A stretch of 64,000 nt of DNA, taken from positions 32,001-96,000 of the IMG/VR virus record IMGVR_UViG_3300032092_000005; one strand, 5' to 3'. Made by a program: the position numbers and the translations under genes. Each line of letters opens with the position of its first letter. The first letter of the stretch is position 1. This document shows, one piece after another, positions 4,478 to 13,781 of the stretch. The notes beneath the pieces were generated by a model. It saw only the letters and a list, made by a program, of their open reading frames with translations. It searched no databases and was not told where the DNA came from. The DNA comes from a virus.

Positions 4478-4552
4478 GTGCCTTTAGTAAAATGGATATT
4501 ACACAACGCTACGAACGTTGGAGTGGGAGTTCGATTCTCTCAGGGCGCACCA
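4478..4552 (+). tRNA. tRNA-Arg(ACG)
   Basis: cloverleaf, CT-ACG-AA loop. Confidence 0.92.
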
Positions 4553-4562
4553 AGAGATATAT

Positions 4563-4654
4563 GGAAGATGATGCAGCGGGGTTGGTCCTGCGACTGGCCT
4601 TGAAAACCAGGTTCTCAGAAATGGGATGGGGTTCGACTCCTCCGTCTTCCGCCA
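4563..4654 (+). tRNA. tRNA-Ser(TGA), 8/4 cloverleaf
   Basis: 8-bp acceptor GGAAGATG/CGTCTTCC, 4-bp T-stem, long V-arm, G73. Confidence 0.85.
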
Positions 4655-4655
4655 G

Positions 4656-4684
4656 TTGACAATGAAGCTTGATTGTGATACAAT
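4656..4684 (+). promoter_or_regulatory. sigma70-type promoter for small-RNA/DUF2828 unit, inside an inverted repeat
   Basis: TTGACA-17-TACAAT; CAATGAAGCT...AGCTTCATTG. Confidence 0.75.
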
Positions 4685-4703
4685 AGCTTCATTGTAGAGT
4701 TTT

Positions 4704-4866
4704 AGGATAGGTACAGCAACCCACTAATACCGAATCGTTTAGTCACTGTGGTAAAAAACTGGAGTACGGAGTCTTGACCGAGTACGTTGAAGGTTTGACA
4801 CTGAAACATACTAAGCAAGGAGAGTTTCGATTTTCTCTCTGTAAACAAAAAGTAGACAACTATCCT
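4704..4866 (+). ncRNA. Y-RNA-like small RNA, copy 1
   Basis: AGGATAG-GTACAGCAA...CTATCCT-GTT terminal stem. Confidence 0.7.
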
Positions 4867-4884
4867 GTTATATTTGAAAGTTTT

Positions 4885-5014
4885 AGGATCGGTACAGCAA
4901 CATTAATCTTTACTAAAAGATGGTTCGAGCTAGTTTAAGGCAATAACACCCTTATTTCTTGAACCCACGTGAGTTTCGAATTCTCACTCGAAAGAAAAAG
5001 TAGAAACCGATCCT
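4885..5014 (+). ncRNA. Y-RNA-like small RNA, copy 2
   Basis: AGGATCGG-TACAGCAA...CCGATCCT-GTT. Confidence 0.7.
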
Positions 5015-5024
5015 GTTGTATTTT

Positions 5025-5146
5025 AGGTTAAGTTCCGCAAAACAAAATATGCAAACATAAACCGAAAGTCTGGTTCGATTCCAGCTAGGGCACGTAGTGT
5101 CTTAGTAGTGTAATGGCAGCACATTGGTACGCAAAAAGTTTAACCT
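5025..5146 (+). ncRNA. YrlA-like RNA with circularly permuted tRNA domain, copy 3
   Basis: AGGTTAAG-TTCCGCAA...TTTAACCT; T-arm, loop-closed acceptor and D-arm in permuted order. Confidence 0.75.
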
Positions 5147-5167
5147 GTTGATTTGAAAGGAAATATT

Positions 5168-6607
5168 ATGTCAACATTTGTAGAAGCCGTAGTAAACCAA
5201 GAAGCCCGTACTGCCAATGGCATGAAGGCACGTAAGTCCACTGCTAATGCGGTTGTAGATTTATTCTACAATGCAGGTGCAAGCCGTGGTAAGAATATTG
5301 TTCCTGCATTCGCAGCAGCATTTGCGCAAGACCGTGATCTAGCATTGCGCGTAGCCGCCTGGTTGCGTGATGTGCGTAGCGGTGCAGGTGAACGTCAATT
5401 GTTCCGTGATATCTTAGGGTATCTGGAAAACAATGATCGTGTAGCAGCAAAGGCACTTGTTGCAAAGGTTCCTGAATTGGGACGTTGGGATGACTTGTTC
5501 ATCTTCAATTCTAAGGAAATGAAGGAAGCAGCATACACATTGCTTGGTGACGCATTGCGTGAAAAGAATGGCCTTGCAGCTAAGTGGACACCTCGTCAAG
5601 GCAAGCTTGCAGCAGAAATTCGTACATTCTTCGGAATGTCGCCAAAGTTCTACCGCAAGTCTCTAGTTGAAATGACTAACGTTGTTGAAACTAACATGTG
5701 TGCAAAGGACTGGGACGGGATTAACTTCTCGCATGTTCCATCTGTAGCAGCATCGCGGTACAAGAAGGCATTCAACCGTAACACTCCAGCTTATGCAGCA
5801 TACGTTGCAGAGTTGATGAAGGATCCAAAAGATCGTACAGTTGAAGTGAAGGTTAATGCTGGTGCAGTGTACCCATATGATGTACTGAAAGGTCGCATCT
5901 CTGGTTATGGTGTGTCGTTTGACAAGACAGAATTGGATCTGATCCAAAAGCAATGGGAAGCACTACCTAACTTTGTTGGGGATGCAAACATTCTGCCTTT
6001 GGTTGACGTTTCTGGTTCTATGACTTGTCCAGCAGGTGGATCAGGCTCAAAGTCTAAGCTGACTTGCCTGGAAGTTGCAGTCTCTCTGGGATTGTATCTT
6101 GCAGACAAGAACAAGGGTAAGTTCAAGGATACGTTCTTGACTTTTTCTAACAAGCCAGAGTTGATGACTTTGAAGGGCAACATCAATGAGAAGATCAGCC
6201 AAATGGTTTCTTCTGATTGGGGAATGACTACTGACTTGAATCGTGCGTTTGACAAAATCCTTAGTGTAGCAATTAAGGGCAATGTGCCAAACAGTGAAAT
6301 GCCAGAAATGTTGCTGATCCTTTCGGACATGCAATTCAATTCTTGTGTTGCACATGACGATTCGGCTATCGAAATGATGGCACGTAAGTACGAAGCAGCA
6401 GGATACGCCTTACCAAAGGTTGTGTTCTGGAACTTGAATGCTGCATACGGCAATGCGCCTGTGAAGTTTGACAAGTCTGGCACTGCATTGGTTTCGGGGT
6501 TCTCTCCAGCCATTGTTAAGCCTCTGCTATCTGGCGACATGGAAGACTTTTCACCAGAGGCTGTGATGTTGAAGACAATCATGGATGACCGTTATACTGT
6601 GATTTAA
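5168..6607 (+). CDS. DUF2828-type Ro60/TROVE-like protein with C-terminal vWA domain
   Basis: RDVRSGAGER, PELGRWDDL, AKWTPR, MIDAS DVSGS, SDMQF, VFWNL, SGFSP motifs; AAAGGA SD. Confidence 0.85.
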   Translation: MSTFVEAVVNQEARTANGMKARKSTANAVVDLFYNAGASRGKNIVPAFAAAFAQDRDLALRVAAWLRDVRSGAGERQLFRDILGYLENNDRVAAKALVAKVPELGRWDDLFIFNSKEMKEAAYTLLGDALREKNGLAAKWTPRQGKLAAEIRTFFGMSPKFYRKSLVEMTNVVETNMCAKDWDGINFSHVPSVAASRYKKAFNRNTPAYAAYVAELMKDPKDRTVEVKVNAGAVYPYDVLKGRISGYGVSFDKTELDLIQKQWEALPNFVGDANILPLVDVSGSMTCPAGGSGSKSKLTCLEVAVSLGLYLADKNKGKFKDTFLTFSNKPELMTLKGNINEKISQMVSSDWGMTTDLNRAFDKILSVAIKGNVPNSEMPEMLLILSDMQFNSCVAHDDSAIEMMARKYEAAGYALPKVVFWNLNAAYGNAPVKFDKSGTALVSGFSPAIVKPLLSGDMEDFSPEAVMLKTIMDDRYTVI

Positions 6608-6687
6608 AAATCTAAGTATAACTCCGAGGATTCGAAAGAGTCCTCATTTTGAAGTGTGCTGATAGTGCATTTCAAAATGAAAAATAA

Positions 6688-6775
6688 GGAAGACTCCCAT
6701 AATGGTATTGGAGCGGCTTGCTAAGCCGTCGGTCGTTAAATCGGCTTCGGGGTTCGAGTCCCCGGTCTTCCGCCA
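6688..6775 (+). tRNA. tRNA-Ser(GCT)
   Basis: TT-GCT-AA loop, long V-arm, G73. Confidence 0.9.
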
Positions 6776-6850
6776 TACACAATGTACGCTATAATGTACA
6801 TTAACAGTGGTTTTTGTTCATAATGGGCGTTTTTATGCCTCTTATGACAG

Positions 6851-7863: not shown

Positions 7864-7947
7864 GGAGTGAATGGAACAATGGTGTTCTAGCCGGCTGTAA
7901 CCCGGTGGCCTTCGGGCAGGTAGGTTCGATCCCTACTCACTCCACCA
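7864..7947 (+). tRNA. tRNA-Tyr(GTA)
   Basis: CT-GTA-AC loop, V-arm. Confidence 0.88.
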
Positions 7948-7953
7948 GATTTT

Positions 7954-8013
7954 AGAATGCGTTCAGCAAAAAAATACATTGAACTTTTAATTCAAACCGT
8001 AAAAAAGCATTCT
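7954..8013 (+). ncRNA. Y-RNA-like small RNA, copy 4 (tRNA-Lys anticodon stem-loop cargo)
   Basis: AGAATGC-GTTCAGCAA...GCATTCT-GTT; internal TTGAA-CTTTTAA-TTCAA. Confidence 0.7.
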
Positions 8014-8038
8014 GTTGTTTACATATATAATACGTTGT

Positions 8039-8114
8039 GTACGTGTGCGCCGAACGGCTAGGTAGCGGATTGCAAATCCGTATAATGCAGGTTCGAATCC
8101 TGTCACGTACTCCA
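8039..8114 (+). tRNA. tRNA-Cys(GCA)
   Basis: TT-GCA-AA loop, U73. Confidence 0.9.
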
Positions 8115-8128
8115 CACAAAAGATTTAT

Positions 8129-8207
8129 TCCGTAGAACCCGAGCATGGTGCATGGGCTTGACTGTTAATCAATGTTTAGCTGGGATCGTTACCCAGATAC
8201 GGAGCCA
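8129..8207 (+). tRNA. tRNA-Asn(GTT), atypical T-loop
   Basis: CT-GTT-AA loop; T-loop ATCGTTA. Confidence 0.78.
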
Positions 8208-8217
8208 AAAGTTATAT

Positions 8218-8293
8218 TGCGGGTAGTGCCCAGTCAACAGTCCAGTCTCATAAGCTCGGATCATCGGAGGTGCGAATCCTTCACCCGCAACCA
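8218..8293 (+). tRNA. tRNA-Met(CAT), initiator-like, atypical
   Basis: TGCGGGT/ACCCGCA-A-CCA acceptor, CT-CAT-AA loop, bulged anticodon stem. Confidence 0.7.
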
Positions 8294-8298
8294 GTTTT

Positions 8299-8353
8299 AG
8301 GATCAGTTCAGCAAACTTAAAAATTTCTCTTGTTCGGAAAAAAAGTTGATCCT
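8299..8353 (+). ncRNA. Y-RNA-like small RNA, copy 5
   Basis: AGGATCAG-TTCAGCAA...TTGATCCT-GTT. Confidence 0.7.
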
Positions 8354-8363
8354 GTTGTTTTTC

Positions 8364-8437
8364 GCCCTATTAGTATAATGGTATTACACCTGTTTTGTAA
8401 TCAGGTTACGGCAGTTCGATTCTGTCATGGGGCACCA
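8364..8437 (+). tRNA. tRNA-Thr(TGT)
   Basis: TT-TGT-AA loop. Confidence 0.9.
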
Positions 8438-8447
8438 AGTCATTTTT

Positions 8448-8521
8448 GCGGGGTTCATTTAATGGTAGGATTTCAGCCTTCCAAGCTGATAGTGCGAGTT
8501 CGATTCTCGCACCCCGCTCCA
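8448..8521 (+). tRNA. tRNA-Gly(TCC)
   Basis: CT-TCC-AA loop, U73. Confidence 0.92.
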
Positions 8522-8528
8522 ATATTTT

Positions 8529-8602
8529 CTCGGTGTGGTGAAATGGTATCACTCTTGGTTTGGGACCAAGGAGCGCAAGTTCGATTCTTGCCACCGAGAC
8601 CA
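8529..8602 (+). tRNA. tRNA-Pro(TGG)
   Basis: TT-TGG-GA loop. Confidence 0.92.
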
Positions 8603-8610
8603 CAAGTTTT

Positions 8611-8670
8611 AGGATAGTTACAGCAAAAAACAAAGCTAACTATTGGTTGTCTAGCGACAAAAGCTATCCT
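8611..8670 (+). ncRNA. Y-RNA-like small RNA, copy 6
   Basis: AGGATAGT-TACAGCAA...GCTATCCT-GTT. Confidence 0.7.
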
Positions 8671-8688
8671 GTTGTTTAATGAGGCTAT

Positions 8689-9477: not shown

Positions 9478-10236
9478 ATGAGAATTGTGATTGTAACGGG
9501 CGGCTTTGATCCACTTCATAGTGGACATGTTGCTTACATTAAAGCAGCTAGAGAACTAGGCGACAAATTGATTGTCGGTATAAACTCTGATGAATGGCTA
9601 TCGCGCAAAAAGGGGCGTCCCTTTATGTCGTGGCAAGAACGTGCAACTATCGTTTCAGCTATCGCAGAGGTTGACAGAGTTATCTGTTTTAATGATGGTG
9701 ACAATACTGCAATTGATGCAATTCGAAAAGCTAAAAAGATTTTTCCTAATCATGATATCATCTTTGCAAATGGCGGTGACAGGACAAAAGAAAATATACC
9801 CGAAATGGTATTTGATGATGTAGAGTTTGTGTTCAGCGTTGGCGGTGATAACAAAGCGAATTCTTCTAGTTGGATTTTAGAAGAATGGAAAACACCTAAG
9901 ACAGAACGGACATGGGGTTACTATCGTGTACTGCATGAAGTCGGTTCACAGGTTAAACTAAAAGAGTTGACGGTAATGCCTAAAACATGTTTGAGTATGC
10001 AGAGACATGATCAACGTGCAGAGTTCTGGTTTGTAGCTGAAGGAGAAGCCACGGTGTACACCTTGAATGAAGCTTCAACTGATCAAGAAGTTAAATGTCA
10101 ATTAATTGCACATGAGCATACATTTATCAAAACAAACGAATGGCATCAATTATGTAATGAAACTACAGAGCCTTTAAAGCTCATTGAAATTCAATACGGC
10201 AAAGCTTGTATTGAAGAAGACATAGAACGGTTATAA
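9478..10236 (+). CDS. cytidylyltransferase-like (HxGH) domain fused to mannose-6-P isomerase-type cupin
   Basis: GGFDPLHSGH; RTWGYY...SMQRH..RAEFW...IEIQYG. Confidence 0.8.
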   Translation: MRIVIVTGGFDPLHSGHVAYIKAARELGDKLIVGINSDEWLSRKKGRPFMSWQERATIVSAIAEVDRVICFNDGDNTAIDAIRKAKKIFPNHDIIFANGGDRTKENIPEMVFDDVEFVFSVGGDNKANSSSWILEEWKTPKTERTWGYYRVLHEVGSQVKLKELTVMPKTCLSMQRHDQRAEFWFVAEGEATVYTLNEASTDQEVKCQLIAHEHTFIKTNEWHQLCNETTEPLKLIEIQYGKACIEEDIERL

Positions 10237-10624: not shown

Positions 10625-10699
10625 GCCTTGGTAGCTTAATGGTAAAGCAGGCGACTCATAATCGCTTGAGTGGGAGTTCAATTCTCTCCCAAGGCACCA
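10625..10699 (+). tRNA. tRNA-Ile2(CAT)
   Basis: GGCGA-CTCATAA-TCGCT anticodon arm as in E. coli ileX. Confidence 0.85.
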
Positions 10700-10717
10700 T
10701 TTAAAAAGGAAAGTAAA

Positions 10718-11188
10718 ATGCGTAAATTAGATTTGAATGAAGTTAGAGAATACATCGAATCGCAGTCACCTGATACAAAAATTTATATCGGATGTGATTC
10801 CGAAAGATTGAATGTTGCGGGACAATGGTACGCAGATTACATTTTAGCAATTGTAGTACACATTAACGGAAGACATGGATGCAAATTGTTTGGAGAAATC
10901 CAACGTGAACGTGACTATGACCAGAAAGTCAGTCGCCCTAGATACAGGCTAATGACAGAAGTTTATAAAATTTCTGAATTGTACCTAAAACTAGCCGATG
11001 TGCTTGAAGGTAGACATGTTGAAGTCCATCTGGACATTAACCCTAATGAAATGCATGGATCATCATGTGTTATCAACGAGGCAATAGGCTATATCAAAGG
11101 AACATGTAATGTAGTTCCTATGGTAAAGCCAAAGGCGTTTGCAGCATCATATGCAGCAGACAGATATAAGAGTTTACACGTAGCTTAA
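10718..11188 (+). CDS. RNase H-like YkuK-family protein
   Basis: IYIGCDS...EVHLDIN...A.YAAD motifs. Confidence 0.75.
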   Translation: MRKLDLNEVREYIESQSPDTKIYIGCDSERLNVAGQWYADYILAIVVHINGRHGCKLFGEIQRERDYDQKVSRPRYRLMTEVYKISELYLKLADVLEGRHVEVHLDINPNEMHGSSCVINEAIGYIKGTCNVVPMVKPKAFAASYAADRYKSLHVA

Positions 11189-12761: not shown

Positions 12762-13781
12762 ATGAGAAAATTAGCTACTATTCGAAAGATTGATGCATTG
12801 AATCCTATTGAGGGTGCTGATGCTATTGAATGCGCAACCGTAGGTGGTTGGAAAGTTGTTGTTAAGAAAGGTGAATACAATGTAGGAGACCGTGTTGTCT
12901 ACTGCGAGATTGACTCATGGATTCCTACTGAGTTAGCACCATTCCTATCAAAGGGAAAAGAACCTCGAGAATTCGAAGGCATCAAAGGTGAACGTCTTCG
13001 TACCATCAAGCTGCGCGGTCAGTTGTCACAAGGTTTGCTGTTGCCGTGGACTGTAGGAGGCGGCGTGCTGGACATGGCGCAGATGTTTGCAGGCGAAGGC
13101 GATGATGTATCGGAACTGCTTGGTATTGTGAAGTGGGAAATGCCCATGAATGCACAACTTGCGGGCATGGCACGTGGTAACTTTCCATCTGCAATTCCTA
13201 AGACTGACCAAGAACGTGCGCAAAATCTTGTTGGAGAAATTCTTGCTGCTGCACAAGCTGGTACTCAATTTGAGATTACCGAAAAGCTTGAAGGCTCTTC
13301 AATGACTTGCTACTTGATTGATGGAGAATTTGGTGTTTGCTCACGTAACCTCGACTTGAAGGAAACTGAAGGCAATGCATTCTGGCAAGTTGCGCGGCGT
13401 GATGACATTGAGGCAAAAATGCGTATCGGCCGAAATTTTGCTATTCAAGGCGAGTTGATTGGTCCTGGCATTCAAGGTAATATCTACAAACTACGTGAAC
13501 CAGAGTTCCGTGTGTTTGATGTATACAATATTCAAGGTGGTTGCTATTTGGATCCAGCTGACCGGCGTGAGTTGATTGAGAGCATGGGACTGAAACATGT
13601 TCCTGTTATGTACGTTGACAAGGATCTTGGTGTTGGCTCTGTAGAAGAAATTCTGCAATGGGCTGAAGGTGCATCAAAGCTGAACGAAAAGCAAGAACGT
13701 GAAGGTATCGTATTTAAGGAAGTGAATGGCGGTATGTCATTCAAGGCTATTTCAAATAAGTATCTGCTAGGAGAAAAGTAA
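12762..13781 (+). CDS. RNA ligase, DRB0094 family
   Basis: N-terminal RKLATIRKI..IEGADAIE OB domain; motif I EKLEGSS; QGELIGPGIQ; EGIVFK; FKAISNKY. Confidence 0.88.
   Translation: MRKLATIRKIDALNPIEGADAIECATVGGWKVVVKKGEYNVGDRVVYCEIDSWIPTELAPFLSKGKEPREFEGIKGERLRTIKLRGQLSQGLLLPWTVGGGVLDMAQMFAGEGDDVSELLGIVKWEMPMNAQLAGMARGNFPSAIPKTDQERAQNLVGEILAAAQAGTQFEITEKLEGSSMTCYLIDGEFGVCSRNLDLKETEGNAFWQVARRDDIEAKMRIGRNFAIQGELIGPGIQGNIYKLREPEFRVFDVYNIQGGCYLDPADRRELIESMGLKHVPVMYVDKDLGVGSVEEILQWAEGASKLNEKQEREGIVFKEVNGGMSFKAISNKYLLGEK

What the first reader, a model, noticed from the sequence alone, without database searches (positions are those of the whole stretch)
5025..5146. Circularly permuted tRNA domain (YrlA architecture) directly upstream of the DUF2828 gene
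Seen, in 5'-3' order: ACCGA (5061-65), AAGT, T-arm CTGG-TTCGATT-CCAG (5070-84), an acceptor-like helix closed by a loop CTAGGGCAC-GTA-GTGTCTTAG (5085-5105), TA, D-arm GTGT-AATGGCA-GCAC (5108-22), A, then TTGGT (5124-28), which pairs with ACCGA. This is a complete tRNA opened at the anticodon loop, with the handle stem in place of that loop. Known: this is the topology of bacterial YrlA RNAs beside Ro60 genes. Inference: it is the strongest evidence that DUF2828 and this RNA family are functional counterparts of Rsr and Y RNA.
Basis: partly seen in the sequence, partly recalled or inferred. Interest (0 to 1): 0.85.

Follow-up and report, generated by a model that had tools for sequence, protein, structure and literature searches.

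The report
Scrambled-tRNA partner RNA of phage Ro60-like protein
Just upstream of a phage gene for a ring protein shaped like the RNA-surveillance protein Ro60 lies a conserved small RNA: a tRNA with its acceptor end sealed and its anticodon end opened into a conserved "handle", which makes it a divergent, uncatalogued relative of bacterial Y RNAs.

Summary
Positions 5061-5128 hold, in permuted order, a T arm, a sealed acceptor-like hairpin, U8/A9, a D arm and a 5-bp anticodon-stem equivalent. A 10-bp handle (5025-5034 with 5137-5146) encloses them. Re-joined in normal tRNA order, ARAGORN calls the core a tRNA. None of 1000 shuffles passes, and no other offset in the 64 kb passes.

All five helices covary across related phage contigs: 26 of 29 pairs have compensatory changes. 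The T loop, the D loop and the motif CNGCAA are near-invariant.

The downstream DUF2828/DUF7788 protein models as a Ro60 ring plus vWA domain (VIA Z 20.8; the top ten hits are all Ro60). The same RNA design lies beside homologous genes, on the same strand, in phages of Mycobacterium, E. coli, Enterococcus, Bacillus, Sinorhizobium and Cronobacter. Some T4-like phages carry the opposite permutation.

It is not a member of Rfam YrlA: there is no hit, and the GNCGAA motif is absent. Binding to the protein is inferred, not shown.

Published work has described phage Ro60/Y-RNA pairs and has speculated about this protein family. I found no description of this RNA family. This scan has noted the same family on many other genomes.

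Verdict: a real new variant of the Ro60/Y-RNA kind.

The parts
4656..4684 (+). Sigma-70-type promoter (TTGACA, 17 nt, TG-extended TACAAT) that would drive units 1-3 and the Ro60-like gene as one transcript
   Evidence: 11 of 12 consensus matches; no terminator-like site anywhere in 4500-6800.
4698..5022 (+). Two upstream sibling RNAs (unit 1 about 4698-4880, unit 2 about 4878-5022). They share the handle layout and carry T-loop-like hairpins but no D arm.
   Evidence: R2 hits unit 2 at genome 36877-37021.
5021..5024 (+). Conserved U-rich 5' flank of the handle
5025..5034 (+). Handle helix, 5' strand (AGGTTAAGTT)
   Evidence: It pairs with 5137-5146. Across related and distant copies, 9 of the 10 pairs show changes on both sides.
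5035..5040 (+). Invariant single-stranded motif CNGCAA (here CCGCAA), the candidate protein-contact site
   Evidence: Four positions are identical in 33 of 33 aligned copies and the second C in 32 of 33. The motif is also present in the Mycobacterium, E. coli, Enterococcus and Bacillus phage copies.
5041..5060 (+). A-rich variable linker
5061..5065 (+). 3' strand of the anticodon-stem equivalent (ACCGA)
   Evidence: It pairs with 5124-5128. In the MAFFT alignment 4 of the 5 pairs change on both sides.
5066..5069 (+). Variable-loop equivalent (AAGT)
5070..5084 (+). T arm: 4-bp stem and loop TTCGATT
   Evidence: The stem is 100% paired with compensatory changes. Loop positions U54, U55, C56, R57 and A58 are conserved in at least 26 of 27 copies.
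5085..5105 (+). Sealed acceptor-stem equivalent: 9 bp closed by GTA
   Evidence: Its length varies among relatives from 5 to 9 bp, with covariation, and it is absent in L051.
5106..5107 (+). U8/A9 equivalents
5108..5122 (+). D arm: 4-bp stem and loop AATGGCA, with A14 and G18-G19
   Evidence: The stem is 98-100% paired with compensatory changes. AA-UGG is conserved in 24-27 of 26-27 copies.
5123..5128 (+). Position-26 equivalent (A) followed by the 5' strand of the anticodon-stem equivalent (TTGGT)
5129..5136 (+). Conserved A-rich 3' inner motif (ACGCAAAA)
5137..5149 (+). Handle helix, 3' strand (AGTTTAACCT, 5137-5146), followed by the invariant GTT
5168..6607 (+). Gene for the 479-aa DUF2828 + DUF7788 protein: a Ro60-fold ring plus a vWA domain with a DxSxS MIDAS motif. 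AAAGGA lies 7 nt before the ATG.
7946..8677 (+). Three short handle-only sibling RNAs (7946-8020, 8291-8360, 8603-8677). Two start 2-3 nt after a tRNA gene; 8291-8360 follows an uncalled tRNA-like CCA end.
12762..13781 (+). PHA02142-type RNA ligase gene. This is context only. The same ligase type sits immediately upstream of the homologous gene in phage GAP32.

Best explanation
Positions 5021-5149 encode a Y-RNA-like small RNA with the YrlA layout. It is transcribed from the promoter at 4656-4684 together with two sibling RNAs and the mRNA of the Ro60-like protein, and is then cut out of that transcript. The proposed mechanism has three parts. First, the handle is the docking site for the Ro60-fold ring encoded 21 nt downstream. 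The handle is a covarying 10-bp helix flanked by the invariant single-stranded motifs CNGCAA and GCAAAA and by GUU. Second, the other end is a sealed tRNA body whose D-loop/T-loop elbow is intact. It cannot be aminoacylated or decoded, but it offers a tRNA-shaped surface to a second, tRNA-recognising partner. Candidates are a host exonuclease such as PNPase, a tRNA-modifying or tRNA-processing enzyme, the phage RNA ligase, or a host tRNA-cutting defence enzyme. Third, the RNA tethers or gates the ring protein, as Y RNAs do for Ro60. Shown here: the sequence anatomy, the covariation of all five helices, the conserved loop nucleotides, the Ro60 fold of the protein, and the recurrent same-strand pairing of RNA and gene in distant phages. 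Inferred: transcription and processing, binding to the protein, the identity of the second partner, and the biological role (RNA surveillance or repair, or counter-defence).
For: Anatomy and chance controls. Covariation on a structure-blind MAFFT alignment of 14 relatives gave 92% of cells paired and 14 pairs changed on both sides; 0 of 500 shuffles reached this. On 33 model-aligned copies, 93.8% of cells were paired against 31-44% when partners were slid, and 26 of 29 pairs were compensatory. T-loop UUCGA, D-loop AA-UGG and CNGCAA are near-invariant. The AlphaFold model of the protein has pLDDT 92.7. All twelve Foldseek hits better than E 1e-6 are Ro60, at E down to 3e-9. VIA gives Z 20.8 over 412 residues to Xenopus Ro60 and 15.8-16.6 to Thermus phage phiLo Ro60, then drops to about 10 for vWA-only hits. 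The MIDAS motif DxSxS is invariant in 70 homologues. In six whole phage genomes, every model hit at E <= 0.001 lies 0.1-6.6 kb from the DUF2828 gene on its strand. In 80 metagenomic loci all 81 hits are on the gene's strand, in 63 loci. The opposite circular permutation, a normal tRNA with a CCA end and the same handle closed as a hairpin in place of the anticodon loop, occurs in phages S13 and BUCT-ZZ01. This argues for selection on the 3D object rather than on the gene order. Published parallels: YrlA beside Rsr (PMC4201824), and phiLo Ro60 binding two adjacent Y-like RNAs and host PNPase (PMC12135203). RNA-repair genes recur nearby.
Against: There is no expression or binding data for this phage. 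The Rfam YrlA model gives no hit even on 151 nt at E <= 10, and the YrlA 5' motif GNCGAA is absent. The energy fold is not exceptional. In the 63 related loci with a model hit, only 34 have a full tRNA-like match; most of the rest show a short handle RNA without it just upstream of the gene, within the 2-kb flank searched, so this cargo is not obligatory there. The anticodon-stem equivalent aligns poorly in distant phages. The Ro60-like gp130 of the Felix O1-type phage Bas63 counters the Ppl defence system when expressed alone from a plasmid or from T7 (PMC11482910). At least one activity of this kind of protein therefore does not need the phage's own RNAs. That gp130 is the orthologue of this protein is my inference from gene position.
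Confidence: 0.75

Rival explanations
1. It is a free-standing tRNA decoy or processing element that works without the DUF2828 protein. The tRNA-like body would soak up a host tRNA-binding enzyme or nuclease, or direct RNase P/Z-type cuts in the polycistronic transcript. The handle would be only a stability or cleavage signal. The gene would be a neighbour because both reside in tRNA clusters.
For: Two of the three short sibling handle RNAs start 2-3 nt after a tRNA gene and the third after a tRNA-like CCA end, and many copies are interleaved with tRNAs. Bas63 gp130 acts without the phage's own RNAs. M. smegmatis YrlA is cut by RNase P.
Against: The pairing with the gene holds where there is no tRNA cluster. 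In mycobacteriophage Gardann, for example, three handle RNAs follow the gene and the only annotated 'tRNA' in the stretch overlaps one of them. The single-stranded motifs are invariant from actinobacterial to proteobacterial phages while the helix covaries, which is the signature of a conserved protein contact. The whole-genome hits cluster at the gene.
Confidence: 0.13
2. It is a cis-acting leader of the DUF2828 mRNA. The handle ends 21 nt before the start codon, so binding of the protein (autoregulation) or of a tRNA-recognising factor to the uncut leader would control translation of the gene.
For: In the related loci a handle element, long or short, ends about 15-20 nt before the start codon. 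There is no terminator or strong promoter between the RNA and the gene.
Against: Identical handle RNAs lie kilobases away or downstream of the gene, in this phage and in Gardann, wV8, S13 and phiM7. The design is therefore not tied to a leader position. This role could also coexist with a trans-acting one.
Confidence: 0.08
3. It is a true circularly permuted tRNA gene, matured by circularisation as in the red alga Cyanidioschyzon, or the decayed remnant of two tandem tRNA genes.
For: Re-permutation yields an ARAGORN-valid cloverleaf. Tandem tRNAs in this window score weakly with the YrlA model.
Against: There is no anticodon loop, no CCA and no discriminator base. The acceptor strands are 3 nt apart and complementary over 9 bp, which two different tRNAs would not be. 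The sealed hairpin varies from 0 to 9 bp among relatives while the handle is invariant. Covariation shows purifying selection on the permuted form. No parent among the phage's 25 tRNAs is recognisable.
Confidence: 0.02

Closest known systems
YrlA Y RNAs of Salmonella, Mycobacterium smegmatis and other bacteria, and of 22 phages (Chen et al. 2014, PMC4201824; Rfam RF02553)
   Same: It is encoded next to, and on the strand of, a Ro60-type gene. The 5' and 3' ends form the protein-side module. The distal module is a tRNA mimic with T arm, D arm and a sealed acceptor-like stem-loop between them. The tRNA-invariant loop nucleotides are kept.
   Different: There is no match to the Rfam model. CNGCAA stands in place of the GNCGAA(N)G motif. 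A long, fully base-paired, covarying handle helix is present. The variable region is a 4-nt loop, not an arm. The partner protein belongs to DUF2828/DUF7788, not to Pfam TROVE. Up to six handle RNAs with different cargo occur per phage.
Thermus phage phiLo Ro60 with Yrl1/Yrl2 (PMC12135203; PDB 9KOP, 9L5Y)
   Same: It is a phage-encoded Ro60-fold protein with small RNAs encoded directly upstream. Binding of those RNAs and of host PNPase has been shown experimentally there. VIA gives Z 15.8-16.6 to the model made here.
   Different: The phiLo protein is not detectably related by sequence (no PDB hit by phmmer at E <= 10). Its Yrl RNAs are described as stem-bulge-stem RNAs with a CGAA motif, not as tRNA mimics with CNGCAA.
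Deinococcus radiodurans Rsr-Yrn1-PNPase (RYPER) complex (as summarised in PMC4201824)
   Same: The logic is modular: one end of the RNA binds the ring and the other end, which contains a T arm, contacts a second protein.
   Different: Yrn1 has the opposite orientation of T and D elements and only a partial D arm. No partner is known here.
Ro60-like proteins already noted in cultured phages of this protein family: Bas63 gp130 (PMC11482910), Listeria phage CKA15_055 (PMC12282133), and the 'Ro-like RNA binding protein' of cluster L mycobacteriophages (GenBank annotation)
   Same: For CKA15_055 (a P100-like phage) and the mycobacteriophage proteins, same protein family: homologues from related Listeria phages and from Gardann are hit by tblastn and carry DUF2828 + DUF7788. 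For Bas63 gp130, orthology is my inference from gene position in the related Felix O1-type phage wV8. Those papers speculate that nearby 'tRNA genes' or abundant transcripts may be Y RNAs.
   Different: None of them defines the RNAs. The handle motif, the permuted tRNA body and its covariation are not described in the passages of these papers that I read.
Circularly permuted tRNA genes of Cyanidioschyzon merolae (from my own knowledge, not checked here)
   Same: The 3' half of the tRNA is encoded before the 5' half.
   Different: Those genes mature into ordinary tRNAs. This one lacks an anticodon loop and CCA and is selected in the permuted form.

Membership tests
YrlA (Rfam RF02553; Chen et al. 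2014) | Scores at or above the family's gathering threshold (69 bits) with the Rfam covariance model | tested here: not met
   No YrlA hit at E <= 10 on 7.6 kb, 641 nt or 151 nt around the element. The model hit only pairs of adjacent true tRNAs, at 25-33 bits.
YrlA (Rfam RF02553; Chen et al. 2014) | Encoded within about 4 kb of a Ro60 orthologue and on the same strand | tested here: met
   The handle ends at 5146 and the gene starts at 5168, same strand. The same holds in six whole phage genomes. The partner is Ro60-like by fold, not by Pfam TROVE.
YrlA (Rfam RF02553; Chen et al. 2014) | Conserved 5' motif GNCGAA(N0-1)G, the proposed Rsr contact | tested here: not met
   The motif is absent from 5017-5060. 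The conserved motif at the equivalent place is CNGCAA. ACCGAAAG at 5061-5068 is not conserved in relatives.
YrlA (Rfam RF02553; Chen et al. 2014) | T and D stem-loops carrying tRNA-invariant nucleotides, with a sealed acceptor-like stem-loop between them | tested here: met
YrlA (Rfam RF02553; Chen et al. 2014) | Covariation of the Levitt pair 15:48 | tested here: inconclusive
   Position 15 is A in nearly all copies, while the last variable-loop base is U, A or G. No covariation is seen, but the register of position 48 is uncertain.
YrlA (Rfam RF02553; Chen et al. 2014) | Pseudouridine 55 and dihydrouridine made by TruB and DusA; bound by Rsr in vivo | not testable with these tools
   This needs RNA from infected cells.
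Ro60 / TROVE proteins (the partner gene) | Match to Pfam TROVE (PF05731) | tested here: not met
   Only DUF7788 (E 3e-46) and DUF2828 (E 3e-20) match at E <= 1. The same is true of five homologues from cultured phages.
Ro60 / TROVE proteins (the partner gene) | Alpha-helical repeat ring followed by a vWA domain with a MIDAS motif | tested here: met
   The model has pLDDT 92.7. Ro60 chains fill the top ranks over the full length: Foldseek E 3e-9 and TM 0.55-0.64, VIA Z 20.8, rmsd 4.0, 412 residues. D280, S282 and S284 are invariant.
tRNA (RF00005) or circularly permuted tRNA gene | Anticodon arm, open acceptor end with discriminator base and CCA, and detection as a tRNA in native order | tested here: not met
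   The element is not called by ARAGORN or Rfam in native order. It has no anticodon loop, and the acceptor is sealed by a 3-nt loop.

The most novel reading that the evidence does not exclude
The Ro60-like ring and its handle-tagged RNAs form a phage counter-defence or repair platform that displays interchangeable tRNA parts. This RNA has the topology of a tRNA cut in the anticodon loop with its acceptor ends sealed, and sibling RNAs carry only an anticodon-type hairpin. The particle could bait host tRNA-cutting defence nucleases. Alternatively the ring's real clients could be anticodon-nicked tRNAs, which it hands to the phage RNA ligase, with these RNAs acting as substrate-mimicking gates.
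Probability: 0.2. Interest if true: 0.85.

Novelty: new variant of a known kind. Interest (0 to 1): 0.7.

Why it matters
Ro60 and Y RNAs are a long-studied but poorly understood particle, known from autoimmunity in humans and from RNA surveillance in bacteria. This element shows that a large, sequence-divergent branch of Ro60-fold proteins has its own partner-RNA family. That branch has 711 cultured phage records in one tblastn search and thousands of metagenomic proteins. The RNA family has a precisely definable docking handle and swappable tRNA-derived cargo, and both circular permutations of the same 3D object occur. The family is not in Rfam. In public records it is partly mis-annotated as odd tRNAs, intron-containing tRNAs or small ORFs. 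It occurs in genetically tractable phages, namely Felix O1-type, T4-type, Listeria P100-type and mycobacteriophages. A Ro60-like protein in one of these, probably of this family, has been reported to defeat a bacterial defence system. What the tRNA-like module of Y RNAs is for therefore becomes directly testable in phage-host pairs.

Tried and rejected
1. Rfam cmscan at permissive thresholds on three nested stretches gave no YrlA or tRNA hit on the element.
2. Single-sequence energy folding recovers the handle and the acceptor hairpin but not the arms, with z -0.93. It is not informative either way.
3. blastn of the locus against 50,697 phage records found no RNA homologue. Homologues had to be reached through the protein and then with covariance models.
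4. phmmer of the protein against PDB sequences found nothing relevant. Only fold comparison shows the Ro60 relationship.
5. The search for a parent tRNA among the phage's 25 tRNAs found none convincing.
6. Levitt-pair covariation was not seen.
7. RtcB, T4 Rnl1-type ligase and a CCA-adding enzyme were not found in the 152-kb record, which is about 85% complete. The Rnl1 control search matched none of the control genomes, so that negative carries no weight.
8. Model hits in PX29 and BUCT-ZZ01 with a 31-nt insert between the T and D arms were rejected as permuted elements. By sequence inspection in BUCT-ZZ01 and by analogy in PX29, they span two adjacent normal-topology tRNA-like RNAs.
9. Burroughs and Aravind 2016, the 2020 Annual Review on bacterial Ro60, and the supplementary phage table of Chen et al. 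2014 are not held. I therefore could not check whether any of the 22 phages of that study belongs to this protein family.

Full report
WHAT IS THERE

The window is part of a 152-kb uncultured phage record with at least 25 tRNA genes in two clusters. A strong sigma-70-type promoter lies at 4656-4684. No terminator-like site follows it up to 6800. Between the promoter and a 479-codon gene (5168-6607) lie three tandem non-coding units with no ORF of 60 aa or more on either strand. The finding is the third unit.

In 5'-to-3' order the unit contains:
- the handle 5' strand, 5025-5034;
- CCGCAA, 5035-5040;
- an A-rich linker;
- ACCGA, 5061-5065;
- AAGT, 5066-5069;
- a T arm, 5070-5084;
- a 9-bp hairpin closed by GTA, 5085-5105;
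- TA, 5106-5107;
- a D arm, 5108-5122;
- A, 5123;
- TTGGT, 5124-5128, which pairs with ACCGA;
- ACGCAAAA, 5129-5136;
- the handle 3' strand, 5137-5146;
- GTT, 5147-5149.

A Shine-Dalgarno-like AAAGGA and the ATG at 5168 follow.

IS IT MORE THAN CHANCE?

I cut the core at the GTA loop and joined the two anticodon-stem strands through an arbitrary 7-nt loop. ARAGORN then calls a normal 70-74 nt cloverleaf, whichever loop I insert. The same cut-and-join on 1000 shuffles of the core gave no call. Applied at every offset of the 64-kb window it gave calls only at 5059-5130. In native order neither ARAGORN nor Rfam's tRNA model sees the element. Thermodynamic folding alone is unremarkable, with z -0.93, and finds only the handle and the acceptor hairpin. 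The case therefore rests on comparison with related sequences.

CONSERVATION AND COVARIATION

The protein retrieved 80 related phage contigs at 67-90% amino-acid identity. blastn found the unit just upstream of the gene in about 22 of them.

On a structure-blind MAFFT alignment of 14 distinct copies, 92% of cells are paired. Fourteen pairs change on both sides, and 0 of 500 shuffles reach this. Examples are ACCGA/TTGGT becoming ACTGA/TCAGT or CCCC/GGGG, the T stem CTGG/CCAG becoming CCGG/CCGG or CATGG/CCATG, and the D stem GTGT/GCAC becoming ATGT/GCAT or GTCT/AGAC.

I built a covariance model from this alignment (R1) and a second one from a wider alignment (R2). On 33 model-aligned copies, including copies from distant phages, 93.8% of cells pair, against 31-44% when the partners are slid by 1-3 columns. 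Twenty-six of 29 pairs show compensatory changes, including 9 of the 10 handle pairs. That alignment is fitted to the model and so leans towards the structure. The MAFFT result and the sliding control point the same way.

Among unpaired positions, the following are near-invariant:
- CNGCAA after the 5' handle strand: four positions identical in 33 of 33 copies, the fifth in 32 of 33;
- the T-loop UUCGA-U, at least 26 of 27;
- the D-loop AA-UGG, 24-27 of 26-27;
- GUU after the 3' strand, 32-33 of 33.

The loop positions are the nucleotides that build the tRNA elbow (U54, U55, C56, A58, A14, G18, G19). The sealed acceptor hairpin is the least constrained part. It ranges from 5 to 9 bp and is missing altogether in L051.

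THE NEIGHBOURING PROTEIN

Pfam sees only DUF2828 and DUF7788, not TROVE. PHROGs calls it 'RNA-binding protein'. An AlphaFold model built on 70 diverse homologues has mean pLDDT 92.7.

All twelve Foldseek hits in the PDB better than E 1e-6 are Ro60, aligned over the full length. They come from Xenopus, human, Deinococcus Rsr and Thermus phage phiLo, with E down to 3e-9 and TM 0.55-0.64. VIA-align gives Z 20.8 (412 residues, rmsd 4.0) to Xenopus Ro60. All top ten are Ro60, and the score then drops to about 10 for vWA-only matches. The DxSxS MIDAS motif is invariant. The gene therefore encodes a Ro60-fold protein that sequence methods do not link to TROVE.

IS THE PAIRING GENERAL?

tblastn finds full-length homologues in 711 cultured phage records. 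These include Felix O1-type coliphages, T4-type phages, jumbo phages, Listeria, Staphylococcus and Enterococcus Herelleviridae, Campylobacter phages, and mycobacteriophages in which the gene is annotated 'Ro-like RNA binding protein'.

The covariance models find open-handle, acceptor-sealed tRNA mimics with the same CAGCAA-type motif in these phages:
- Mycobacterium phage Gardann, 94 nt downstream of the gene, overlapping an annotated 'tRNA-Asn';
- E. coli phage wV8, under a minus-strand hypothetical ORF;
- Enterococcus phage TJE2, two tandem copies upstream;
- Bacillus phage Chewbecca;
- Sinorhizobium phage phiM7;
- Cronobacter phage S13.

When five of these phage genomes and the window's own record were searched whole, every hit at E <= 0.001 lay 0.1-6.6 kb from the gene and on its strand. 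In the 80 metagenomic loci, all 81 hits at E <= 1e-4 are on the gene's strand, in 63 loci. Thirty-four loci have the full tRNA-like unit. Most of the others have a short handle-only RNA at the gene-proximal position.

THE OPPOSITE PERMUTATION EXISTS

Downstream of the S13 and BUCT-ZZ01 genes lie RNAs with ordinary tRNA topology. They have a 7-bp open acceptor stem, a CCA end, and D and T arms. The anticodon loop is replaced by a hairpin made of the same handle, in the order (A)CGCA(AA), strand, short loop, strand, then CAGCA or CUGCAA. Rfam's tRNA model matches them with a roughly 45-nt insert. GenBank lists the two S13 RNAs as tRNA-Ser and tRNA-OTHER. An annotated two-piece tRNA-Leu in Aeromonas phage PX29 may be the same design, but I did not read its sequence. 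Two gene orders that give the same three-dimensional object argue that the tRNA body plus handle is the unit under selection.

COMPARISON WITH WHAT IS KNOWN

Chen et al. 2014 defined YrlA as a Y RNA encoded near, and on the strand of, a Ro60 orthologue. [quoted passage not shown] They reported it in 254 bacteria and 22 phages.

This element shares the layout and the genomic relationship with YrlA. It fails the Rfam model and lacks that motif. It works like a YrlA but is not a member of that family as defined.

Other published work bears on the same kind of system:
- Phage Ro60 with adjacent Y-like RNAs and PNPase binding has been shown for Thermus phage phiLo.
- For this protein family the literature contains only speculation. 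Some 'tRNA genes' next to Bas63 gp130 may be Y RNAs, and abundant transcripts upstream of Listeria phage CKA15_055 may be Y RNAs.
- The Bas63 work also shows that gp130 alone counters the Ppl defence system, even when moved into T7. The RNAs are thus not needed for every activity of this kind of protein. That gp130 is the orthologue of the protein studied here is my inference from its position before the tRNA stretch in the related phage wV8.

I found no paper or Rfam family that defines this handle or the permuted tRNA body. Several key reviews and one supplement were not available to me. This scan has recorded the same RNA-protein family on many other genomes. My tests on wV8, S13 and BUCT-ZZ01 agree with those notes.

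MECHANISM

The most likely reading, at about 0.75, is a Y-RNA-like adaptor. The handle and its single-stranded motifs dock on the Ro60-like ring. The sealed tRNA elbow recruits or occupies a tRNA-recognising factor. The RNA thereby tethers or gates the ring.

RNA-repair genes recur in the neighbourhood:
- a PHA02142-type RNA ligase 6 kb downstream here, and immediately upstream of the gene in GAP32;
- RtcB near the Listeria phage gene;
- a macro-domain protein in phiM7.

These neighbours, together with the Ppl result, point to RNA surveillance or repair, or to counter-defence. Which of these applies remains inference. The rivals are weaker but not all excluded. They are a protein-independent decoy or processing signal, a cis-acting leader, and a true permuted tRNA gene. 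The leader role in particular could coexist with a trans-acting role.

Noticed in passing
window 4563-4650: A probable class II tRNA with anticodon loop CUUGAAA (UGA, serine) and a long variable arm. ARAGORN does not call it. It scores only 35 bits with Rfam's tRNA-Sec model, below threshold. It sits just before the promoter of the Y-like RNA operon.
   Followed up: partly
window 8220-8293: An uncalled tRNA-like RNA ending in ACCA. It has a T arm GGAGG/TGCGAAT/CCTTC, a CUCAUAA loop (CAU) and no ordinary D arm. About 100 nt of unexplained non-coding sequence precede it (8122-8220), and a short handle RNA follows it directly.
   Followed up: no
window 4698-5022: Units 1 and 2 share the handle with the finding but carry different interiors. 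Each ends in a T-loop-like hairpin, GAGAG...CTCTC and GTGAG...CTCAC around UUCGAUU or UUCGAAU, with no D arm. This recalls the T-arm-only Yrn1 of Deinococcus.
   Followed up: partly
window 7946-8020: A short handle RNA whose interior is a 5-bp hairpin, TTGAA/CTTTTAA/TTCAA. That is an anticodon-arm look-alike with UUU (lysine), the part that the finding's tRNA body lacks.
   Followed up: partly
L002 3373-3617 (Cronobacter phage S13) and L003 3082-3325 (Synechococcus phage BUCT-ZZ01); possibly L096 6919-7035 (Aeromonas phage PX29, not read): In S13 and BUCT-ZZ01, normal-topology tRNAs with CCA ends have the anticodon loop replaced by the same handle closed as a hairpin. GenBank annotates the S13 pair as tRNA-Ser and tRNA-OTHER. 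PX29 has an annotated two-piece tRNA-Leu that may be the same design. These are probably not decoding tRNAs.
   Followed up: partly
L084 3970-4235 (Mycobacterium phage Gardann); L085 4247-5036 (E. coli phage wV8); L090 4024-4101 (Staphylococcus phage S-CoN_Ph7): Public annotations overlap handle RNAs. Gardann's 'tRNA-Asn' lies inside a permuted tRNA-like RNA. The wV8 gene 48 (minus strand) and a 29-codon Staphylococcus phage ORF lie over handle RNAs. These are likely mis-annotations.
   Followed up: partly
window 9478-10236 and 10670-11188: Two protein genes are embedded in or abut the tRNA cluster. One is a cytidylyltransferase-like domain fused to a mannose-6-phosphate-isomerase/cupin domain. 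The other is an RNase H-like (PF04308) protein.
   Followed up: no
L086 1226-2495 (Campylobacter phage CP30A) and L087 499-1572, 2103-2501 (Listeria phage LMTA-94): Long unannotated gaps upstream of the homologous genes hold uncalled tRNAs, a partial tRNA-model hit lacking the acceptor (L086 1756-1820), and weak handle-model hits. In Listeria P100-type phages this is probably the region of the three highly abundant transcripts reported in PMC12282133.
   Followed up: partly
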